55,703 bases of DNA from a virus (Duplodnaviria > Caudoviricetes). Below, in pieces: positions 45,998 to 52,647 of this stretch. A program made the position numbers and the translations under genes. A model generated the notes under the pieces. It was given only the letters and a program-made list of their open reading frames with translations, was not told the DNA's origin and made no database searches. The stretch covers positions 1 to 55,703 of the IMG/VR virus record IMGVR_UViG_3300050014_000104. One strand, given 5' to 3'. How positions within the stretch are numbered: position 1 is the first letter of the stretch; each line of letters opens with the position of its first letter.

Positions 45998-46025
45998 ATT
46001 ATATCAAACCTACAACAGAAGTCAA
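45998..46025 (-). promoter_or_regulatory. sigma70-like promoter
   Basis: TTGACT-16-TATAAT with TGn extension; ATG 6 nt downstream at 45991. Confidence 0.75.
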
Positions 46026-46438
46026 TCCCCTTTTTCACCGAACTTATGAAAGTATCTCAACGGTCTCCACAAATGGTTATTAACCCAGAACCCCCATTTT
46101 CTGTATTGACGTGAGCATAGCAATAACGTCCAAGCACCTTCGGGCGGGATTTCAAGCCGATGCTGTTTGTCGCCTTTGGCATACCAAATGGATGGGGCTT
46201 TGATATGCCTACTGCCATTCGGGGTATGATTTGTATAACTACCCTTAAAGAGAAAGGATAGAAAGTCGCATCCGTGGTCATGAAAGTGGGGACCAACGTC
46301 AGAACTAATCCAGTGATGAATCCGAATTGAGTAACCAAAGAATAAGAATGTCCAACGGGTCAAGTAATGAGTTGACCCTTGATACATCTTTTCAGCCCAG
46401 CGAATCTGGAAGGGGCGAAATTTTCGGTATTCTTTCAT
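46022..46438 (-). CDS. cupin-like hypothetical protein
   Basis: YLTRW...IHH...D...HDH...G.Y...HR...WTL...R.WGF. Confidence 0.7.
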   Translation of the reverse strand: MKEYRKFRPFQIRWAEKMYQGSTHYLTRWTFLFFGYSIRIHHWISSDVGPHFHDHGCDFLSFLFKGSYTNHTPNGSRHIKAPSIWYAKGDKQHRLEIPPEGAWTLLLCSRQYRKWGFWVNNHLWRPLRYFHKFGEKGD

Positions 46439-46516
46439 ATTGTGTCGGTTATTGCTGACATTACCTATTGTCTGTTATTTCTGACGTTTCTCTCTACTGT
46501 CTGATATGTATGACAT

Positions 46517-47149
46517 ATGATTATTGAGAAAGAAATTGGAACTGGTACAGATTGTATCTATGTTTATTACAATCCGAATGACAAAAAACTTGCGTTGATG
46601 GAAAGCAAAGACCGATGGGAATGCAAGATAGGATTTTCTTCCACTGACCCAGTAAAGCGGATACAGAGTCAGGGGTATCAAACATCTATGGCAAGAGAGC
46701 CAGTCATTGGTCTGGTAATACGGACTACGAATGGTTACTATACTGAATCCTTCATTCATAAGCGTCTTTACAGTTATAGAGTCCCCTCAAAAGTAGGCGG
46801 TGACGAGTGGTTTCTCACGTCTCCCGCCGAAGTTGAATCAATTTTTGTTAATGACATTTTGCCAAATAAAAGTGGAGATACTTACTGCGAATATGAAATC
46901 TCAGATACCAATGACTTTGCTTCGGTGTTAAACTTGCATAGGAAAAAAGTAAATATGACAAATGAAAACCTTTGCAACAAAGTCAAGGTTAGTCGGGATA
47001 CGCTATGGAGACTTTTCCACGGACAGAAAACTGTGTGCCTTTCAACTGTATTCAAGGTGTTAAATGAATTGGATTTAGACATTACGTTAAAATCAAAACT
47101 TCCTGCTGACAAAATAAAGATTCATACATCGGCTCGTAAGGCACGTTAG
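46517..47149 (+). CDS. GIY-YIG (T5orf172-like) nuclease fused to an XRE HTH
   Basis: IYVY...KIGFS..DP..RI...E..IH...EWF; C-terminal HTH. Confidence 0.75.
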   Translation: MIIEKEIGTGTDCIYVYYNPNDKKLALMESKDRWECKIGFSSTDPVKRIQSQGYQTSMAREPVIGLVIRTTNGYYTESFIHKRLYSYRVPSKVGGDEWFLTSPAEVESIFVNDILPNKSGDTYCEYEISDTNDFASVLNLHRKKVNMTNENLCNKVKVSRDTLWRLFHGQKTVCLSTVFKVLNELDLDITLKSKLPADKIKIHTSARKAR

Positions 47150-47172
47150 CACTCATATATGAATCGTTAAAT

Positions 47173-47254
47173 TGGTCAGCGCAACGGGACTTGAACCACG
47201 TAAACCTCCACTATGTATTAGACAGTGGCGCTCTGCCAATTGAGCTATGCGCTG
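47173..47254 (-). tRNA. atypical tRNA-like gene (7-bp anticodon stem with AAU, or 11-nt loop containing CUA)
   Basis: CAGCGCA/TGCGCTG-A-CCA acceptor, GCTC/GAGC D arm, CCACTGT-CTAATAC-ATAGTGG, bulged T stem with TTCAAGT loop. Confidence 0.7.
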
Positions 47255-47256
47255 GT

Positions 47257-47362
47257 TGGTCAACGAGGTAGGAATCGAACCTACGGCCCCGTGCATGTGT
47301 AGCACCACAGAATTCACTGTGCGGATTATTAGTCCGGCGCTCTTCCACTGAGCTACTCGTTG
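47257..47362 (-). tRNA. atypical tRNA (anticodon AAU) with a 31-nt insertion
   Basis: CAACGAG/CTCGTTG-A-CCA; CCGGA-CTAATAA-TCCG[31 nt]G; GTAGG-TTCGATT-CCTAC. Confidence 0.75.
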
Positions 47363-47364
47363 AT

Positions 47365-47444
47365 TGGCGGGGCACCGAGGACTCGAACCTCGAACCTTCA
47401 TTGCATTGCTGCAATGCTGCTCTATCCCATTGAGCTAATGCCCC
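47365..47444 (-). tRNA. tRNA-like gene with a non-canonical anticodon arm
   Basis: GGGGCAT/GTGCCCC-G-CCA with canonical D and T arms; the arm GCATTGCAGCAATGCAATG gives no 7-nt U33 loop. Confidence 0.7.
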
Positions 47445-47457
47445 AAATTTCATATCG

Positions 47458-47730
47458 TTATGCCAGTATCAATTCCTCTGCGTGAGCGGCGAGATACTGC
47501 CGTTGGGCCTCTTGCTTGGCACCCCTTAACTCTTCAATCATCTCCGTGGCCCGTGCCCGCATCTTAAGCAAGTTGTACTGCATCCCACCAGCGTAGCCCT
47601 TGGCTCTCTGGGTCTCCTTGATGTCGGCCTTCGTCTCACGAATCTGCTGGCTGAGTGCTTTGTAAGTAGCCTTCCAGTTGGAACGATAAGCTAAATACGT
47701 TTCTTTGCTATTGAATGTGTATGTTGTCAT
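47458..47730 (-). CDS. helical phage hypothetical protein
   Basis: F.SKE.YL..R..WK..YK.LS..IR..K; A-rich leader. Confidence 0.7.
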   Translation of the reverse strand: MTTYTFNSKETYLAYRSNWKATYKALSQQIRETKADIKETQRAKGYAGGMQYNLLKMRARATEMIEELRGAKQEAQRQYLAAHAEELILA

Positions 47731-47794
47731 ATGTTTTCGTTTCTTTTTTGTTATTTTTTCGTTTCTTTTACCTTCCCGATGATATTTATTTCAT

Positions 47795-47944
47795 ATGGGA
47801 AGAAAATCATTAAATAGGACACCCGATGAACAACGAACAACCATCAACGAGCGTAGAATGCGATATTACTGGAAACACCGCAAACAGGAGCGAGCCAATG
47901 CTCTCAAGCGATATTATAGAAAAAAAGACGTGTGCCAAATGTAA
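47795..47944 (+). CDS. small basic MGRK-family peptide overlapping an endonuclease
   Basis: MGRKSLNRTPDEQRTTINERRMRYYWKH...; TATTTAT 5 nt upstream; paralog at 55214-55438. Confidence 0.65.
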   Translation: MGRKSLNRTPDEQRTTINERRMRYYWKHRKQERANALKRYYRKKDVCQM

Positions 47945-48464
47945 ATTGGATTTGCCGTTGGAAATGTTTAGCATACGCAATAGAAATAATAGTACGTTGA
48001 ATTGTTATTGTAAGTTATGCCAACCTGTGATTGCTCATAATTGGCGGATAAATAATTTGGGTAAAGTGAAGTGTCGGGAGAAATTATATCGCCGAGATAA
48101 TAAGGATAAAATCCAACGGCAGCAGAAAGAATATATGACACGGTGGATTGCCAGATTAAACTCTCGATTCGGCAGATGGAAAAAGAGTGCCCATCGGCGA
48201 GGAATTTCATTTGATTTAACTTTGGTGCAATTGGAAACAATGCCATTGTTATGTCATTATACTGGAAATGTATTGACGTTGGAAAGTAACAGACGGAATA
48301 CAGTTTCGTTGGATAGATTGGATTCTTCGCAGGGGTACACCATAACCAATGTAGTTTATTGCTGTTCGTTTGTAAATCTAATGAAGCATGAATTATCATA
48401 TAGTGATTTTGTTAATTCTTGTAAAGCAATTGTCGGTCATTATGAAAAATGTCATAAGAGTTGA
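47826..48464 (+). CDS. HNH-like homing endonuclease
   Basis: KTCAKC...YCKLC; CHYTG...SLDRLDSSQGY...NVVYCCSFVNLMK. Confidence 0.85.
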   Translation: MNNEQPSTSVECDITGNTANRSEPMLSSDIIEKKTCAKCKLDLPLEMFSIRNRNNSTLNCYCKLCQPVIAHNWRINNLGKVKCREKLYRRDNKDKIQRQQKEYMTRWIARLNSRFGRWKKSAHRRGISFDLTLVQLETMPLLCHYTGNVLTLESNRRNTVSLDRLDSSQGYTITNVVYCCSFVNLMKHELSYSDFVNSCKAIVGHYEKCHKS

Positions 48465-48844
48465 AAGTGTTTTGTTATATGTTTTATATCATTTTTCATA
48501 GCAGGGCCAAGGCCCAAAGCTGTAATGGTGGGTTCGCCACCGAAAAAGTTAGGACAACCTGAATCGGTCACTAAGTACGTGGAGATGCCCGCAGCCTCGG
48601 CTTCTTCTTTAGCACGAAGAAGGTGATGGAGGTTTTTGGCTTCGAGGCAAACTTTGGTGCCGGGGTGAGTGGGATACTCGGCGTGATACTCCTTTTGAAG
48701 GTCGGAGTTAGCATTAAGAAATGCACCGAGATAAGCATGGCCAGCTTGAGAGGCAATCTTGCCTGTGTCCATGCCAAGGTCCATACGCACGATGGAGTAC
48801 AAACGGAGAGTGGAGTCGGAAACCTATGTGAAAGTATTATTCAT
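48452..48844 (-). CDS. pth2: peptidyl-tRNA hydrolase type 2 with an in-frame TAG at codon 7
   Basis: VRMDLGM.TGKIASQAGHA...KVCL...V.DSG...T.T.LGLGP...ITKHFQLL; ATG 48844 is coupled to the upstream stop; TAG at 48824-48826. Confidence 0.85.
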
Positions 48845-49202
48845 TTGGGTGCTTCTCTTTCCAATGAAGTTTGTTGTGACAATTGGAACACATCACGTCA
48901 CACTTGTTTATCTCTTTAAGAAGACGGGGTATGCTCCATCCACGCAGAACGGCAAGCGAGACCTCTATGTCTTTTTGAGATGGGTCTCTATGATGGAATA
49001 GCAAACAAGAAATGTGAGATTCTCCGCAGGGGCAAACGAGTTTGGATTTATAATCCGACATCCACTGTTTAATCTGAATAAGGCGTTTTGCCTTATTCTG
49101 TAAGTTGATGGCAATGAGGCGAGTGCGATTTTTCAAGTAAAATCGGCGAGCACATTGTTTGGATTTTTTAAGACCTTCGGGAGTAGATTTATTGTACGGC
49201 AT
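48837..49202 (-). CDS. HNH endonuclease
   Basis: CPCGE....L.FHH.DP..K...E..KCDVMCSNCH..LH; TATTTAT 5 nt upstream. Confidence 0.85.
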   Translation of the reverse strand: MPYNKSTPEGLKKSKQCARRFYLKNRTRLIAINLQNKAKRLIQIKQWMSDYKSKLVCPCGESHISCLLFHHRDPSQKDIEVSLAVLRGWSIPRLLKEINKCDVMCSNCHNKLHWKEKHPNE

Positions 49203-49260
49203 ATACAATAAATAGGGAGGAAGGGACATAAACCACGAAGATAGTTTAATATCCCGAGAT

Positions 49261-49337
49261 TGGCGCTCCATATCGGATTCGAACCGATACAGACAATGGG
49301 TTAGAGCCATCCGCTCTGGCCGTTGAGCTAATGGAGC
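49261..49337 (-). tRNA. amber-suppressor tRNA (anticodon CUA)
   Basis: GCTCCAT/ATGGAGC-G-CCA; GCTC/GAGC; GATGG-CTCTAAC-CCATT; ATCGG-TTCGAAT-CCGAT. Clean 77-nt cloverleaf. Confidence 0.9.
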
Positions 49338-49349
49338 GTGGAATGAAAC

Positions 49350-49388
49350 CTATGTCGGACTGTTGCCATTCATAAATGTATTATTCAT
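49350..49388 (-). CDS. leader peptide MNNTFMNGNSPT ending in TAG
   Basis: Starts 10 nt after the -10 box, ends 12 nt before the suppressor tRNA, and matches the pth2 5' end. Confidence 0.65.
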   Translation of the reverse strand: MNNTFMNGNSPT

Positions 49389-49398
49389 TATGCCTATA

Positions 49399-49426
49399 AC
49401 TATAACACAGGTTAGGGAAATGTCAA
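49399..49426 (-). promoter_or_regulatory. sigma70-like promoter for the leader-tRNA(CUA)-pth2 unit
   Basis: TTGACA-16-TATAGT with TGn extension. Confidence 0.75.
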
Positions 49427-49449
49427 ATACTTTCGCAAAAAATCTTTGC

Positions 49450-49809
49450 CTACTTGGCAAAGGGGTTGATAATGAGGGACTTGGCCTTCTTTTCCCAGCC
49501 TGCGTTATTCATCTCTTCCTCGGAAATGAGGTTGATGTTCTCGTGCAGAGTCATAAGCATCACGGTGACGCCCTTCTCCCGCAGTTTGGCTGCGTATGGG
49601 GCGAGAAGTTTGGAGAAGACGGGTGCCACTGCCATCTTTTGAATTGGGTTCTCCACGTCAATGTTGATGACGAGAATCGAGTTGGGCTTGATGTCATCAA
49701 TGTTGATGGTTGTCACCCTATCGGCGGGCAATTGCAACTCGCTCGGGGGTTCGGCGGTTGTGATAAGTGCGGGGTTAAGGGGCGGTTGTTGTTCTTGGGG
49801 TTGGGTCAT
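49450..49809 (-). CDS. hypothetical protein
   Basis: ORF in the minus-strand run. Confidence 0.65.
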   Translation of the reverse strand: MTQPQEQQPPLNPALITTAEPPSELQLPADRVTTINIDDIKPNSILVINIDVENPIQKMAVAPVFSKLLAPYAAKLREKGVTVMLMTLHENINLISEEEMNNAGWEKKAKSLIINPFAK

Positions 49810-49987
49810 TGGATTTGTCTTTCAGTTCAGGACACGAGCCGCTGGTATGGTTTGTCCACAGACCACACAAGGCACACCATTTATTGTGCCAGTTAATGTC
49901 CCCGAAGTTATCATTCCACTTCTTGGGGTTGTACCCCAGTGTAGGTCTCATACCCTTACCGGGGTTACGGAATTCTTTCTTAGCCAT
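49775..49987 (-). CDS. small Cys/His-containing protein
   Basis: WCALCG...H....CP. Confidence 0.5.
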   Translation of the reverse strand: MAKKEFRNPGKGMRPTLGYNPKKWNDNFGDINWHNKWCALCGLWTNHTSGSCPELKDKSNDPTPRTTTAP

Positions 49988-50282
49988 AGGTGCGTCTCCA
50001 TCGGGCATCATACAGCTTGGCGAGTACATCTCGGTGCCACGACATGCGACGAACGAGAGACTTCATCTTTCGATGCATACCCCATGCGGCAAAGAAGCCA
50101 TGAACTTCTTCTTTGGCGAGGGCAGTAAGCTGGGCGCTCATGCGGAGATACTCGCCCTCAACTTCGAGGATACGAGCATCAATTCCGCTGCAACACCGCT
50201 TTTCCTCAGCGAGGATAGCTTTCATGTAATCATTACCCGCCAGAAACGGCAGGTTAGCTACGTTGAAATGTGGGGCATTCAT
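49980..50282 (-). CDS. hypothetical protein
   Basis: ATGA coupling to the kinase gene. Confidence 0.55.
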   Translation of the reverse strand: MNAPHFNVANLPFLAGNDYMKAILAEEKRCCSGIDARILEVEGEYLRMSAQLTALAKEEVHGFFAAWGMHRKMKSLVRRMSWHRDVLAKLYDARWRRTYG

Positions 50283-50755
50283 ATTTTGTGTACGAAAACC
50301 ACTTCATCGAACTCGGGAACTTCGGGACGCTGATAGCGAGCCAGCATATCATCAATGACCTTTTCGGGCACATTGCGGCCACCCTCAGACCCACGCTTGG
50401 CGTTACGGCCCACGAGGACAGACTTCTCACACTCAAAGACTTCGGCAATCACCTTGGCCCCTCGGCCTCGGGCGATGTTGATAAAGTCCTTGCGGGCTTT
50501 ACGATACATATTGGTCGCATCGAAGATTACGCATTTTCCTTCGCCCAAAGCCTTCTTCATTTGGTCCTTGGCGAGGCAGAAAGCGGGGTACGATACCGTT
50601 TGGTCGTGGGAACCCTTTCCAAGAATACGGCGGTTATCGTCGGGGCAAACCCGTACAATGCGAGGGTCGCCCTCAGTGAGGACTTTGCCAAATGTGGTCT
50701 TTCCGCTGCCCGGAGCACCCACCAGTATCCAAACCACTAGCTGTTCTGTTTTCAT
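50279..50755 (-). CDS. AAA_33 / polynucleotide-kinase-like P-loop protein
   Basis: LVGAPGSGKTT...D..R...VIFDATN...R...RN..R...VP. Confidence 0.9.
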   Translation of the reverse strand: MKTEQLVVWILVGAPGSGKTTFGKVLTEGDPRIVRVCPDDNRRILGKGSHDQTVSYPAFCLAKDQMKKALGEGKCVIFDATNMYRKARKDFINIARGRGAKVIAEVFECEKSVLVGRNAKRGSEGGRNVPEKVIDDMLARYQRPEVPEFDEVVFVHKI

Positions 50756-50762
50756 CGTGGTC

Positions 50763-50791
50763 AATATAACCCACTACTTCGATTCTGTCAA
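50763..50791 (-). promoter_or_regulatory. sigma70-like promoter, leaderless
   Basis: TTGACA-17-TATATT; ATG 7 nt downstream. Confidence 0.65.
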
Positions 50792-51181
50792 CATTTTTCG
50801 GGCGCTCTCCAAGATGGAGAAGATATTTTGTCTCCCAATCGGGTTCAGGGTATGGATGTAGTACAGGGGAACAGGCACCTTGCGTTCTACGCATAGGTGA
50901 GCCAGCCATCGGGCACAATCCATGCCCGTCTTCTCTCGGAGAAGTTCATAACGAATGGTGCCGAACGACTCTGAATTTTCATCGTGAGCCGCCGAGTACT
51001 CGGCATAATGCTCGTCTGCCAAGTCGTGGTCAAACGAGACTGTAGTGGGAATACCTTTCTCCGTTATGGTCTCGGTGAATTCAGCATATGATTTTACTAC
51101 CACCCAAGCATACGGAGGGAGGTCGAGCCACTTGACATCGCTCGGTTTACGGTTGTCATCTAGGAATAAGTGATATGACAT
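50774..51181 (-). CDS. cyclic-phosphate-processing receiver-domain protein
   Basis: LFLDD.R.P...SFDHDL...TGMDCA.WL...HT.NP.G..NI. Confidence 0.8.
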   Translation of the reverse strand: MSYHLFLDDNRKPSDVKWLDLPPYAWVVVKSYAEFTETITEKGIPTTVSFDHDLADEHYAEYSAAHDENSESFGTIRYELLREKTGMDCARWLAHLCVERKVPVPLYYIHTLNPIGRQNIFSILESARKMLTESK

Positions 51182-51182
51182 G

Positions 51183-51596
51183 TTATTTCTTTTTCTTCTT
51201 CTCTTCGTCAAACAAAGGATTGAAGATGTTGCCAACTATGAGCATTTCACGGTGATACCCAATATCAATATTCATCTTGCAGTCAGGCATCTTTAATTCA
51301 AACTTTCCATTTGAAAAGACAACGGTGTAACCATATTCTCGGTGCCCATCTTTATCAAACACTAAGACATCTCCCTCGTAGATTTCTTTTCCTGATTTAT
51401 CCGCCGTACCTGTATATTGATGAATAATATAGTCCTTCTGATTGGACTCGGCGTAAGCACCCATATTATCATTGTGCATTACTTTACCATCCACCGACAG
51501 GCAAACCCACGGATGATACTCATATCCTTCTTGGGCAATTCTCAGAAAAGAATTAGAACGTTTAGACCAAATACGAAATTTGAGTTCTCTATTCAT
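51183..51596 (-). CDS. YopX-family protein
   Basis: MNRELKFRIW...QYTG..DK.GKEIYEGDV...VGNIF. Confidence 0.85.
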   Translation of the reverse strand: MNRELKFRIWSKRSNSFLRIAQEGYEYHPWVCLSVDGKVMHNDNMGAYAESNQKDYIIHQYTGTADKSGKEIYEGDVLVFDKDGHREYGYTVVFSNGKFELKMPDCKMNIDIGYHREMLIVGNIFNPLFDEEKKKKK

Positions 51597-51597
51597 G

Positions 51598-52647
51598 TTA
51601 CTTTTTCTTACGCTCAATGTCGAACATAGGATTGAGGACTTTTCCTGACCAGACTTTCTTGAGTACTCCGCTCGTAAATCCTTCTTGCGGACGAACAACT
51701 ACGCCCTCGGCGGGGAAGCCATTTGGATACTTTTGCTCGCTGGCGAATTTCACCAACTCTTCAATGTTGAACCCAAACGCTGTACCCTCACCAATGGTAG
51801 TAACCATTGTGAGACAGTGGTCTTTGCAGAATTGAGTAAGCTTCTCGTAGTTCAAGTAGCCCCGAGTTTTGATGTCGAAGAGATTGAAAACGTGTAGTTC
51901 CAACTCCGTTAGGCCAAGATGATTGTCTTGGATGCCGGGACCGCAGACCTCGCCTTGAATGGCCATAGCTTGGTTAGGGAATGCTGCCTTAATGACGTTC
52001 GCAAGGTCATATTTGCGAGCCATACGCCAGAATCCATTACCCTCGCTTTCTTTCAGGTGAATGCGTCGGCTGCAAACACCAAACTCGTCTGCATTGACGA
52101 AGAAGGTGCCAGAGCAGCCATCATCTTTACGAGTGATGTAGTACGGGCGTCCCCACAATTCCTCAAGGGCAGTAGGATAAGTACGCAGATTGTCCTCGTC
52201 GGTCATGATAAGGAACCCGGGGAGCATACCGACAGCTTGACCAGCCAACTCGGCCGGGATAGGTTTTTCGTAATGGATAACGCTAAGTTTATCGGTGACA
52301 TCTTCACCTTCATTTACCAAGTAGAAATATGGACCATCTGGCAACAAATCAGTGCAAGGTTTTCGTGAAACTTTATCGCCGAGAATGCTCAGAGGAAAGC
52401 AGATTCCCGCACTTTCCTCTCCCCTCAACCGAATTGGTTTAATCCTAAAGTGTTTGTTTCGCAGAAATTCAAACTCAGGAGTTTCAGGAACTACCGAATC
52501 TATGCAGATATAAACACATAAATCCCCCGCCTTGAATTCTCCTTTTTTGACGACGACGTTCCACCCCAATACCTTTGCGATTTCAAGTGCGTCCGCATTA
52601 TTATGCGGAAGAATTTCTCGTATTTTTTGTACTGTTGCTTCTTTCAT
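51598..52647 (-). CDS. RNA ligase (DRB0094/Rnl5-like)
   Basis: N-terminal OB-like NADALE...GW.VVVKKGEF; motif I KDDGCS, QGEVCGPGIQ.N, F.LFD, EGVV.R. Confidence 0.9.
   Translation of the reverse strand: MKEATVQKIREILPHNNADALEIAKVLGWNVVVKKGEFKAGDLCVYICIDSVVPETPEFEFLRNKHFRIKPIRLRGEESAGICFPLSILGDKVSRKPCTDLLPDGPYFYLVNEGEDVTDKLSVIHYEKPIPAELAGQAVGMLPGFLIMTDEDNLRTYPTALEELWGRPYYITRKDDGCSGTFFVNADEFGVCSRRIHLKESEGNGFWRMARKYDLANVIKAAFPNQAMAIQGEVCGPGIQDNHLGLTELELHVFNLFDIKTRGYLNYEKLTQFCKDHCLTMVTTIGEGTAFGFNIEELVKFASEQKYPNGFPAEGVVVRPQEGFTSGVLKKVWSGKVLNPMFDIERKKK

What the first reader, a model, noticed from the sequence alone, without database searches (positions are those of the whole stretch)
49202..49426. 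Suppressor tRNA preceded by its own UAG-ending leader, with readthrough running across the tRNA
Seen: the promoter (49426-49399) is followed by the near-leaderless ORF MNNTFMNGNSPT-TAG (49388-49350), 12 nt of spacer, then the tRNA(CUA). Past the TAG the frame stays open through the whole tRNA and is in frame with the HNH gene, ending at 48837. Inference: when suppressor is abundant, ribosomes read through and unfold the pre-tRNA, blocking RNase P maturation. That would be negative autoregulation by a tRNA sensing its own decoding activity. Readthrough ribosomes would also terminate on the pth2 ATG, coupling the two gates. I know of no described example.
Basis: partly seen in the sequence, partly recalled or inferred. 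Interest (0 to 1): 0.88.

Follow-up and report, generated by a model that had tools for sequence, protein, structure and literature searches.

The report
Suppressor tRNA nested inside pth2 reading frame
In a group of giant environmental phages, an amber-suppressor tRNA gene sits inside the translated start of a peptidyl-tRNA hydrolase gene, so the enzyme can probably be made only once the tRNA encoded in the same transcript is working.

Summary
On the minus strand lie a terminator, a strong sigma-70-type promoter, the ATG at 49388, the mini-ORF MNNTFMNGNSPT ending in TAG, a 12-nt spacer and tRNA(CUA). The frame stays open through the tRNA and an HNH ORF. Its TAA overlaps the ATG of pth2, which carries a second TAG at codon 7.

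This is not chance. The same layout occurs in 24 of 58 related loci that have a tRNA(CUA) upstream of pth2. These form 20 distinct lineages. In 12 lineages ATG, TAG, tRNA (two tRNAs in one case), usually a second TAG, and pth2 form one continuous frame with no other ATG. In 6 of the other 8, the frame runs 101-232 codons and stops within 8 nt of the pth2 ATG. Non-suppressor tRNAs almost never show such a leader (1 of 190).

I read the "leader" as the start of a translation path to Pth2 that is gated by the suppressor. The tRNA is nested inside that path. It does not explain the long open frames, and 31 related rows show no such leader. Nothing has been tested by experiment. Five literature searches found no description.

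The parts
49444..49462 (-). Terminator-like hairpin plus T-run ending the upstream gene (49450-49809, stop TAG). It isolates the unit.
   Evidence: conserved in L002/L012
49399..49426 (-). Sigma-70-type promoter: TTGACA, 16 nt, TG-extended TATAGT. The -10 element ends 10 nt before the ATG.
   Evidence: 11 of 12 positions. The same layout occurs in the 19 representative lineages, with 7-12 nt from the -10 to the ATG and in L064.
49350..49388 (-). Near-leaderless mini-ORF MNNTFMNGNSPT ending in the first gate codon, TAG (49352-49350), in the context ACA TAG GTT TC.
49338..49349 (-). 12-nt spacer between the TAG and tRNA position 1.
49261..49337 (-). tRNA with anticodon CUA (amber suppressor) and an encoded CCA. 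It lies in the same open frame as the mini-ORF.
48837..49349 (-). Readthrough frame: 170 sense codons plus TAA, with no stop codon inside, across the tRNA and the HNH ORF.
   Evidence: The other two frames hold 4 and 9 TAA/TGA codons in the same interval.
48837..49202 (-). HNH endonuclease ORF, nuclease half only. It is an insertion relative to the closest relatives L058 and L012.
   Evidence: PHROG 2255, E 7e-21, profile positions 80-174 of 211. No Pfam hit at E 0.01. Absent in L002/L012 and L058.
48837..48844 (-). Stop-start overlap ATGAATAA. The TAA of the readthrough/HNH frame lies inside the first codons of the pth2 frame.
   Evidence: -8
48824..48844 (-). Second mini-ORF MNNTFT ending in the second gate codon, TAG (48826-48824). 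The flanks match the leader: ATGAATAATAC and ACATAGGTTTC each occur exactly twice in the window.
48452..48823 (-). Peptidyl-tRNA hydrolase PTH2 domain, in frame behind the second TAG.
   Evidence: PF01981, E 1.8e-24; alignment A1

Best explanation
The mini-ORF is not a free-standing tRNA leader peptide. It is the start of a translation path that leads to the peptidyl-tRNA hydrolase Pth2, and the suppressor tRNA gene lies inside that path.

One promoter makes one transcript that serves as both pre-tRNA and mRNA. Ribosomes start at the (near-)leaderless AUG and meet UAG-1 12 nt before the tRNA.

- Without charged tRNA(CUA), release factor ends translation there. The tRNA then folds and is cut out, which also severs the message.
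- Once the suppressor has accumulated, ribosomes read UAG-1 and translate straight across the tRNA sequence, and in this window across the inserted HNH ORF. They stop on the TAA that overlaps the pth2 AUG, restart, read UAG-2 and make Pth2.

Pth2 output is therefore a steep function of suppressor activity, because one or two UAG codons must be read. A transcript that is being translated is not matured into tRNA, which gives feedback as a side effect.

Shown: the sequence architecture, its conservation, the selection on the frame, and the covariation of stop codon with anticodon.
Inferred: the leaderless start, actual readthrough, competition with processing, and the biological reason for tying Pth2 to suppression.
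For: 1. Recurrence. Of 92 pth2 loci analysed, 58 have a tRNA(CUA) within 900 nt upstream on the same strand. Of these, 24 rows carry promoter, ATG, 4-17 codons, TAG, a 12-58 nt spacer and the tRNA in the same frame. They form 20 lineages at 90% identity.

2. Fused lineages. In 12 lineages the ATG, TAG, tRNA and pth2 form one frame: L012, L013, L014, L058, L060, L061, L062, L064, L065, L068, L071, L082.
- L061 and L071 have only the single TAG. Eleven of the 12 have no ATG between the tRNA and the domain (L062 has one).
- L064 holds two tandem tRNA(CUA) genes inside the frame.
- Over the 11 fused representatives (600 codons), the leader frame has 0 TAA/TGA. The other two frames have 18 and 27.
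- Distances from TAG-1 to pth2 differ (114-378 nt), yet all keep the frame.

3. Coupled lineages. In 8 lineages the frame stays open for 249-699 nt. It stops at -8, -4, -4, -4, +4 and +5 nt from the pth2 ATG in WIN (this window), L079, L091, L122, L018 and L133. In L026 it stops at +48 and in L067 at +267.

4. Control. 21 of 51 distinct tRNA(CUA) genes have such a promoter-proximal leader, against 1 of 190 other tRNAs.

5. The stops are read by the phage suppressor.
- L019 has tRNA(UUA), and both of its gates are TAA in the homologous TTCACGTAA context.
- Atu_ph07 has a tRNA(UCA) (passage read in PMC6102473), and its pth2 carries an in-frame TGA at codon 7.
- Distant pth2 genes without a nearby suppressor tRNA(CUA/UUA/UCA) start normally (L028-L037; XacN1).

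6. Shared TAG context. A Thr codon precedes the TAG in 18 of 19 leaders and 56 of 69 gates. G follows it in 18 of 19 and 60 of 69.

7. The leader equals the pth2 N-terminus. Two exact 11-mers are shared in the window. L059 uses ATGAATAATAC..TAG directly as the pth2 start.

8. Leaderless starts are used with this promoter type. Examples are a Lar protein in L004 (PF14354) and the AAA_33 kinase in the window, whose ATG lies 7 nt after its -10.
Against: - There is no direct evidence of transcription start, translation or readthrough. The only RNA-library material consists of two short assembled contigs, which cannot show transcription.
- 31 of the 58 rows with a tRNA(CUA) next to pth2 show no such leader. 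In those I read closely, the tRNA follows the promoter directly (L016, L024, L025; L074), and L074 and L059 give pth2 its own ATG-x-TAG start. The nested form is therefore optional.
- In the window, L013 and L014, a TTG codon (Leu of RLY) could start pth2 independently.
- With 9-12 nt between the -10 and the ATG, most transcripts would carry a 2-5 nt 5' UTR rather than a terminal AUG.
- A folded tRNA could impede ribosomes.
- The lineages share ancestry, so the counts are not independent events. The quick pth2 tree is poorly resolved.
- Why Pth2 should depend on suppression is unknown.
Confidence: 0.6

Rival explanations
1. The mini-ORF exists to let the suppressor tRNA sense its own activity. 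Readthrough ribosomes unfold the precursor and block RNase P, giving negative autoregulation. Effects on pth2 are secondary.
For: The leader is specific to suppressor tRNAs (21 of 51 against 1 of 190). It ends in the cognate stop 12-58 nt before the tRNA. The frame is open through the tRNA in all 20 lineages.
Against: The open frame never simply ends after the tRNA. It reaches pth2 or its ATG in 18 of 20 lineages, over as many as 232 codons. 31 related rows with a tRNA(CUA), as well as Atu_ph07 and Phosso, show no such leader. The leader is homologous to the pth2 N-terminus.
Confidence: 0.15
2. The layout is an evolutionary relic without function. A mobile tRNA (with or without an HNH gene) was inserted into the TAG-interrupted 5' end of pth2 and duplicated a few bases. 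pth2 is translated from its own start, and the upstream mini-ORF and the open frame are leftovers.
For: Two exact 11-nt repeats flank the tRNA-HNH segment. HNH genes adjoin these tRNAs in L014 and L059. The position of the tRNA relative to the mini-ORF varies (L074 and L019). In the window pth2 has its own ATG.
Against: 20 lineages with different leader, spacer, tRNA and insert lengths all keep the frame and have no TAA/TGA. Eleven of the 12 fused lineages have no ATG after the tRNA, and two have only one TAG. Inserts of 300-700 nt stay open in exactly the leader frame, while the other frames hold 3-13 TAA/TGA codons each.
Confidence: 0.1
3. The tRNA acts like an intron. RNase P and a 3' nuclease excise it, a phage RNA ligase joins the flanks, and the spliced message encodes leader plus Pth2.
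For: RNA-repair-type genes lie nearby: an AAA_33 kinase and a cREC_REC domain protein at 50279-51235. A T4-like RNA ligase lies about 2 kb upstream of pth2 in Atu_ph07. tRNA length is a multiple of 3 in 7 of the 11 fused representatives.
Against: Exact excision would keep the frame in only 7 of 19 representatives, about the one-third expected by chance. tRNA lengths are 74-78 nt. The unprocessed frame is open in all of them. No ligation junction has been seen.
Confidence: 0.05

Closest known systems
prfB (release factor 2) autoregulation by an early in-frame stop codon (recalled from general knowledge, not from a call)
   Same: A stop codon a few codons into the ORF is decoded according to the activity of a translation factor that the same locus produces. 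Expression therefore reports decoding capacity.
   Different: Here the event is in-frame suppression by a tRNA, not a +1 frameshift. The factor is an RNA whose gene lies inside the ORF. The protein made (Pth2) is not the sensor. High activity turns expression on rather than off.
Leader-peptide sensors of tRNA status: trp/his attenuators (recalled) and leaderless polycysteine short ORFs of mycobacteria (10.1101/834739; only the search listing and the start of the abstract were seen)
   Same: A short, first-in-transcript ORF, sometimes leaderless, whose translation depends on the supply of one particular tRNA and controls downstream genes.
   Different: No terminator/antiterminator lies between the leader and the downstream genes. 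The sensed codon is a stop. The sensed tRNA is encoded immediately downstream and is itself translated through.
Stop-codon recoding in phages as a timing device, including the 'code change module' next to the lysis genes of Jade phages (Borges et al., 10.1101/2021.08.26.457843; passages read)
   Same: A phage suppressor tRNA sits next to genes that contain its cognate in-frame stop. The proposal is that suppressor expression switches those genes on.
   Different: This window is not recoded as a whole. TAG=Q merges few ORFs, and TAG ends 6 of 71 ORFs. The only target found in the 55.7-kb window is pth2, 1-2 stops lie at its very start, and the tRNA gene lies inside the ORF.
tmRNA, and tRNA-mRNA co-transcripts such as the tufB operon (recalled)
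   Same: One RNA combines a tRNA(-like) part with a translated part.
   Different: In those cases the tRNA part is not translated. No tmRNA is found in the window. Here the ribosome path runs through the tRNA sequence.

Membership tests
tRNA (Rfam RF00005) | Covariance-model score above the gathering threshold, and a cloverleaf with an anticodon loop | tested here: met
   58.7 bits against 29. ARAGORN calls 49261-49337, anticodon CUA, with encoded CCA.
Amber suppressor tRNA | Anticodon CUA, and cognate in-frame stops in a conserved gene that change when the anticodon changes | tested here: met
   CUA pairs with TAG in the tRNA(CUA) loci. UUA pairs with two TAA gates in L019. UCA pairs with a TGA gate in Atu_ph07.
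Amber suppressor tRNA | Demonstrated decoding of UAG, and the identity of the inserted amino acid | not testable with these tools
   This needs charging and suppression assays or peptide mass spectrometry. The residue at the gates is not conserved in relatives that lack a stop.
Peptidyl-tRNA hydrolase PTH2 (PF01981) | Full-length domain match | tested here: met
   E 1.8e-24, profile positions 3-115 of 115
HNH endonuclease (PHROG 2255 / 3106) | Match to the HNH nuclease core | tested here: met
   E 7e-21, but only profile positions 80-174 of 211, so the family's N-terminal part is missing. No Pfam hit at E 0.01.
Leader-peptide transcription attenuator (trp/his type) | An intrinsic terminator, with an alternative antiterminator, between the leader ORF and the regulated genes | tested here: not met
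   The only minus-strand terminator-like sites in 46000-51500 are 49462-49444, which lies upstream of the promoter, and 51448-51431. The fold of the leader region is not better than shuffles (z -0.59).
prfB-type programmed recoding | A +1 frameshift site with an internal SD-like stimulator at the early stop | tested here: not met
   The downstream ORF is in the zero frame. Reading TAG through gives the continuous frame.
Code-15 (TAG to Gln) recoded phage | Many genes interrupted by in-frame TAG, and ORFs that merge under TAG=Q | tested here: not met
   The ORF map is nearly unchanged under TAG=Q. Stop use is TAA 42, TGA 23 and TAG 6 in 71 ORFs.
Leaderless mRNA | Transcription start at, or within a few nt of, the A of the AUG | not testable with these tools
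   Only predicted. The distance from the -10 to the ATG is 7-12 nt in the 19 representatives. The same layout precedes a Lar gene and the kinase gene in the window.
Translational coupling by stop-start overlap | The stop of the upstream frame overlaps, or lies within a few nt of, the downstream start | tested here: met
   ATGAATAA in the window. Offsets are -4, -4, -4, +4 and +5 nt in L079, L091, L122, L018 and L133.

The most novel reading that the evidence does not exclude
This is a self-referential genetic switch. A suppressor tRNA gene is nested, in frame, inside the coding sequence that only it can decode. One transcript chooses between becoming the tRNA and being translated into Pth2. 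That gives a built-in delay and threshold (tRNA first, enzyme later) together with feedback on tRNA output. The tRNA sequence itself is translated into protein. In some lineages whole arrays of tRNA-like minihelices lie in the same translated frame, which hints that ribosome transit controls the processing of several RNAs at once.
Probability: 0.5. Interest if true: 0.92.

Novelty: categorically new. Interest (0 to 1): 0.85.

Why it matters
It would be, to my knowledge, the first natural case of a tRNA gene lying inside, and being translated as part of, an ORF that needs that tRNA. Five literature searches found none.

It gives a concrete, conserved target for suppressor tRNAs in phages that do not otherwise recode their genes. 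The authors of the XacN1 paper could not identify targets for that phage's two tRNA(CUA) genes (passage read). The Atu_ph07 paper names no specific target (passage read).

It shows that the GenBank pth2 coding sequences of Atu_ph07 and Phosso start at an internal ATG. They miss an N-terminal part that lies behind an in-frame TGA or TAG.

It is also a compact natural design for a delay or threshold switch based on stop-codon suppression. It can be tested directly with reporters and is of interest for synthetic biology.

Finally, it links suppression to peptidyl-tRNA recycling, a connection that nobody has explained.

Tried and rejected
- **Similarity to cultured phages.** Megablast of 46000-52000 against cultured phages found no match. 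blastn of the leader plus tRNA found only a 31-nt tRNA-Leu match.
- **RNA data.** Two metatranscriptome runs each gave one short assembled contig. The X22 contig (155 nt) covers 49257-49362, that is the tRNA, the spacer and the last 13 nt of the leader, and then diverges on both sides. The X23 contig covers 48677-48826. Contigs cannot show transcription, ends or strand, and DNA carry-over is possible. I do not count this as evidence.
- **Global TAG recoding.** Rejected.
- **Shine-Dalgarno argument.** I tried to argue that HNH and pth2 need coupling because they lack a Shine-Dalgarno sequence. This is uninformative, because only 16 of 71 ORFs have an SD-like motif.
- **Leader RNA structure.** The fold is not better than shuffles.
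- **More targets through the motif ACRTAGGTTTC.** In the 279-kb and 250-kb relatives there is one extra match each, at the level of the reversed-pattern control. Neither lies at an ORF start.
- **A third gate.** The TAG between the cREC_REC and kinase ORFs is not conserved as a fusion in relatives.
- **tRNA excision and ligation.** This would keep the frame in only 7 of 19 representatives.
- **pth2 tree.** Only the quick tree finished, and 34 of 68 inner branches are unresolved. It cannot give the number or order of origins.
- **One failed call.** One search failed on wrong coordinates. It was corrected through.
- **Supplements.** Supplementary tRNA tables of the XacN1 and Atu_ph07 papers could not be seen.

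Full report
**What is in the window**

The window is an IMG/VR virus contig of 55.7 kb, estimated to be 16% complete. Its relatives are contigs of 250-354 kb, so this is a giant ("jumbo") phage.

On the minus strand, a terminator-like hairpin (49462-49444) ends the upstream gene. A strong sigma-70-type promoter follows: TTGACA, 16 nt, TG-extended TATAGT, at 49426-49399. Ten nt after the -10 element stands the ATG at 49388. Its frame reads MNNTFMNGNSPT and stops at TAG 49352-49350. Twelve nt further on begins a tRNA with anticodon CUA at 49337-49261 (ARAGORN; Rfam 58.7 bits).

With TAG read through, the frame is open through the tRNA and through an HNH endonuclease ORF, down to TAA 48839-48837 (PHROG 2255, E 7e-21). 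That TAA lies inside ATGAATAA. The ATG of this octamer (48844) opens MNNTFT-TAG(48826-48824) followed by a full PTH2 domain (PF01981, E 1.8e-24).

**The leader resembles the start of pth2**

ATGAATAATAC and ACATAGGTTTC each occur exactly twice in the window. One copy of each lies at the leader and the other at the 5' end of pth2. In the relative L059 the same ATGAATAATAC..TAG is simply the start of pth2, behind a Shine-Dalgarno sequence.

**Relatives**

A protein-profile scan with pth2 gave 26 viral loci and 80 metagenome loci. I analysed 92 rows: the window, L012-L027, L058-L131 and L133. I dropped L132 and L134-L137 because the pth2 N-terminus is cut off at the locus edge. L028-L037 were looked at only.

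Nearly all rows with at least 37% identity carry an in-frame stop just before the conserved RLYA(I/L)V motif. The distant L028-L037 and XacN1 start normally and have no suppressor tRNA(CUA/UUA/UCA) nearby.

The stop codon co-varies with the anticodon:
- TAG with CUA wherever a tRNA(CUA) is found.
- Two TAA gates in the homologous TTCACGTAA context with tRNA(UUA) in L019.
- An in-frame TGA at codon 7 of pth2 in Agrobacterium phage Atu_ph07, whose only suppressor is tRNA(UCA) (passage read in PMC6102473).
- MKY-TAG in Sinorhizobium phage Phosso, which has two tRNA(CUA) genes.

**The leader is conserved and the frame through the tRNA is under selection**

Of the 92 rows, 58 have a tRNA(CUA) within 900 nt upstream on the same strand. 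Twenty-four of these 58 show promoter, 7-12 nt, ATG, 4-17 codons, TAG, 12-58 nt, and the tRNA in the same frame. They form 20 lineages at 90% identity: 19, plus L064.

*Fused lineages.* In 12 lineages the frame continues directly into pth2.
- L061 and L071 have only the one TAG. Eleven of the 12 have no ATG between the tRNA and the domain; L062 has one.
- L064 has two tandem tRNA(CUA) genes inside the frame.
- For the 11 fused representatives, the interval from TAG-1 to the domain (114-378 nt, 600 codons in all) holds 0 TAA/TGA in the leader frame. The other two frames hold 18 and 27.

*Coupled lineages.* In the other 8 lineages, inserts follow the tRNA: an HNH gene in the window, arrays of tRNA-like minihelices in five others.
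- The frame stays open for 249-699 nt.
- It stops at -8, -4, -4, -4, +4 and +5 nt from the pth2 ATG in six of them. The remaining two stop at +48 and +267 nt.
- In L018 and L026 the other two frames hold 7 and 13, and 6 and 13, TAA/TGA codons over the same stretch.

*Control.* Among distinct tRNA-plus-upstream sequences in all loci held, 21 of 51 tRNA(CUA) genes have such a promoter-proximal leader. Only 1 of 190 other tRNAs does, and none when TAA or TGA is used as the test stop.

*Context of the TAG.* A Thr codon precedes the TAG in 18 of 19 leaders and 56 of 69 gates. G follows it in 18 of 19 and 60 of 69.

**Counter-examples**

Thirty-one of the 58 rows have no such leader. Three of these have under 105 nt of upstream sequence available. 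In those I read closely, the tRNA follows the promoter directly (L016, L024 and L025; L074), and in L074 pth2 then has its own ATG-x-TAG start. In L059 an HNH ORF runs into the tRNA, and pth2 again has its own ATG-x-TAG start.

In three further rows (L023, L105, L107) a long upstream gene ends in TAG 7-48 nt before the tRNA. Its readthrough frame is open through the tRNA and ends at -4 nt (L023) and +2 nt (L105) from the pth2 ATG.

The suppressor tRNAs of Atu_ph07 and Phosso have no leader. In L074 and L019 the tRNA lies upstream of the promoter-proximal mini-ORF rather than behind it. The nested form is therefore one arrangement of a more general module: a suppressor tRNA plus a stop-gated pth2.

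**Interpretation**

The data fit a translation path that starts at a (near-)leaderless AUG, needs UAG suppression, crosses the tRNA gene and delivers ribosomes to pth2.

Leaderless starts with this promoter layout are supported by two examples. One is a Lar-family gene in L004. The other is the AAA_33 kinase gene in the window, whose ATG lies 7 nt after its -10.

Because excision of the tRNA would cut the message, each transcript can yield either the tRNA or Pth2. Early in infection termination at UAG-1 would favour tRNA. Later, readthrough would favour Pth2 and lower tRNA maturation. It does not explain why the open frame always reaches pth2, nor why many sister tRNAs lack the leader.

The alternative that the tRNA is excised and the flanks are ligated would keep the frame in only 7 of 19 representatives. 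A relic without function is hard to reconcile with 20 lineages that keep the frame despite differing lengths.

**What is not shown**

The transcription start, translation, readthrough, the inserted amino acid, competition with processing, and the reason for tying Pth2 to suppression are all unshown. Public RNA data gave only two short assembled contigs, which cannot show transcription. The quick pth2 tree is poorly resolved, so independent origins cannot be counted.

**Literature**

Five full-text searches and passages read in four papers gave no description of a stop-gated pth2 or of a tRNA nested in an ORF.
- The XacN1 authors state that they could not find targets for that phage's suppressor tRNAs.
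- Borges et al. propose suppressor-timed expression of recoded lysis genes and describe a "code change module" next to them. That is the closest published idea.
- Supplementary files could not be seen.

Noticed in passing
L018 (=L003) 1953-2460; L026 (=L006/L011); L091; L122; L133: Between the tRNA(CUA) and pth2 lie 2-4 tRNA-like elements per locus. Each has a 7-bp acceptor stem, a T-arm with a GTTCRANYC loop and an NCCA end. Some are only 55-60 nt long and lack a D-arm; others are 130-190 nt. ARAGORN and Rfam do not call them. All lie inside the same open frame that starts at the leader.
   Followed up: partly
L038 2420-2540 (Atu_ph07, MF403008) and L039 2385-2550 (Phosso, PV764938): The GenBank pth2 coding sequences start at an internal ATG. 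The homologous ORF begins further upstream, as MIGEHF-TGA-... in Atu_ph07 and MKY-TAG-... in Phosso. It sits behind SD-like sequences and carries an in-frame stop that matches the phage's suppressor tRNA.
   Followed up: partly
window 47173-47444 (-): This is a cluster of three tRNAs. ARAGORN reads one as having a four-base anticodon (gcaa), and the same call occurs in the relative L002. One match of 103 nt (47260-47362) is found only by Rfam and may carry an intron. One is called tRNA-Ile(AAU).
   Followed up: no
window 47826-48464 (+): An endonuclease VII/HNH-like ORF (PHROG 1035, E 5e-22) lies on the opposite strand just downstream of pth2. No such ORF-sized gap lies between pth2 and the next tRNA in L002. 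It is a second likely homing-endonuclease insertion in this module.
   Followed up: partly
window 50279-51235 (-): RNA-repair-type genes lie next to the module: a cREC_REC (cyclic-phosphate processing receiver) domain ORF that ends in TAG, followed in frame by an AAA_33 kinase. The kinase's own promoter lies inside the end of the upstream ORF, and its ATG lies 7 nt after the -10 (a leaderless layout). The in-frame TAG junction is not conserved as a fusion in relatives.
   Followed up: partly
L014 1716-2319 and L059 300-540: A full-length HNH endonuclease ORF runs directly into a tRNA(CUA) gene; the tRNA starts inside the open frame of the HNH gene. L014 then has a second tRNA(CUA) with the leader.
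   Followed up: no
L078 (metagenome contig, 1177 nt): The promoter is followed directly by what translates like the 3' half of the tRNA (T-arm plus acceptor) and then by pth2. No leader, no TAG and no tRNA call are present. It looks like a deletion derivative of the nested form.
   Followed up: no
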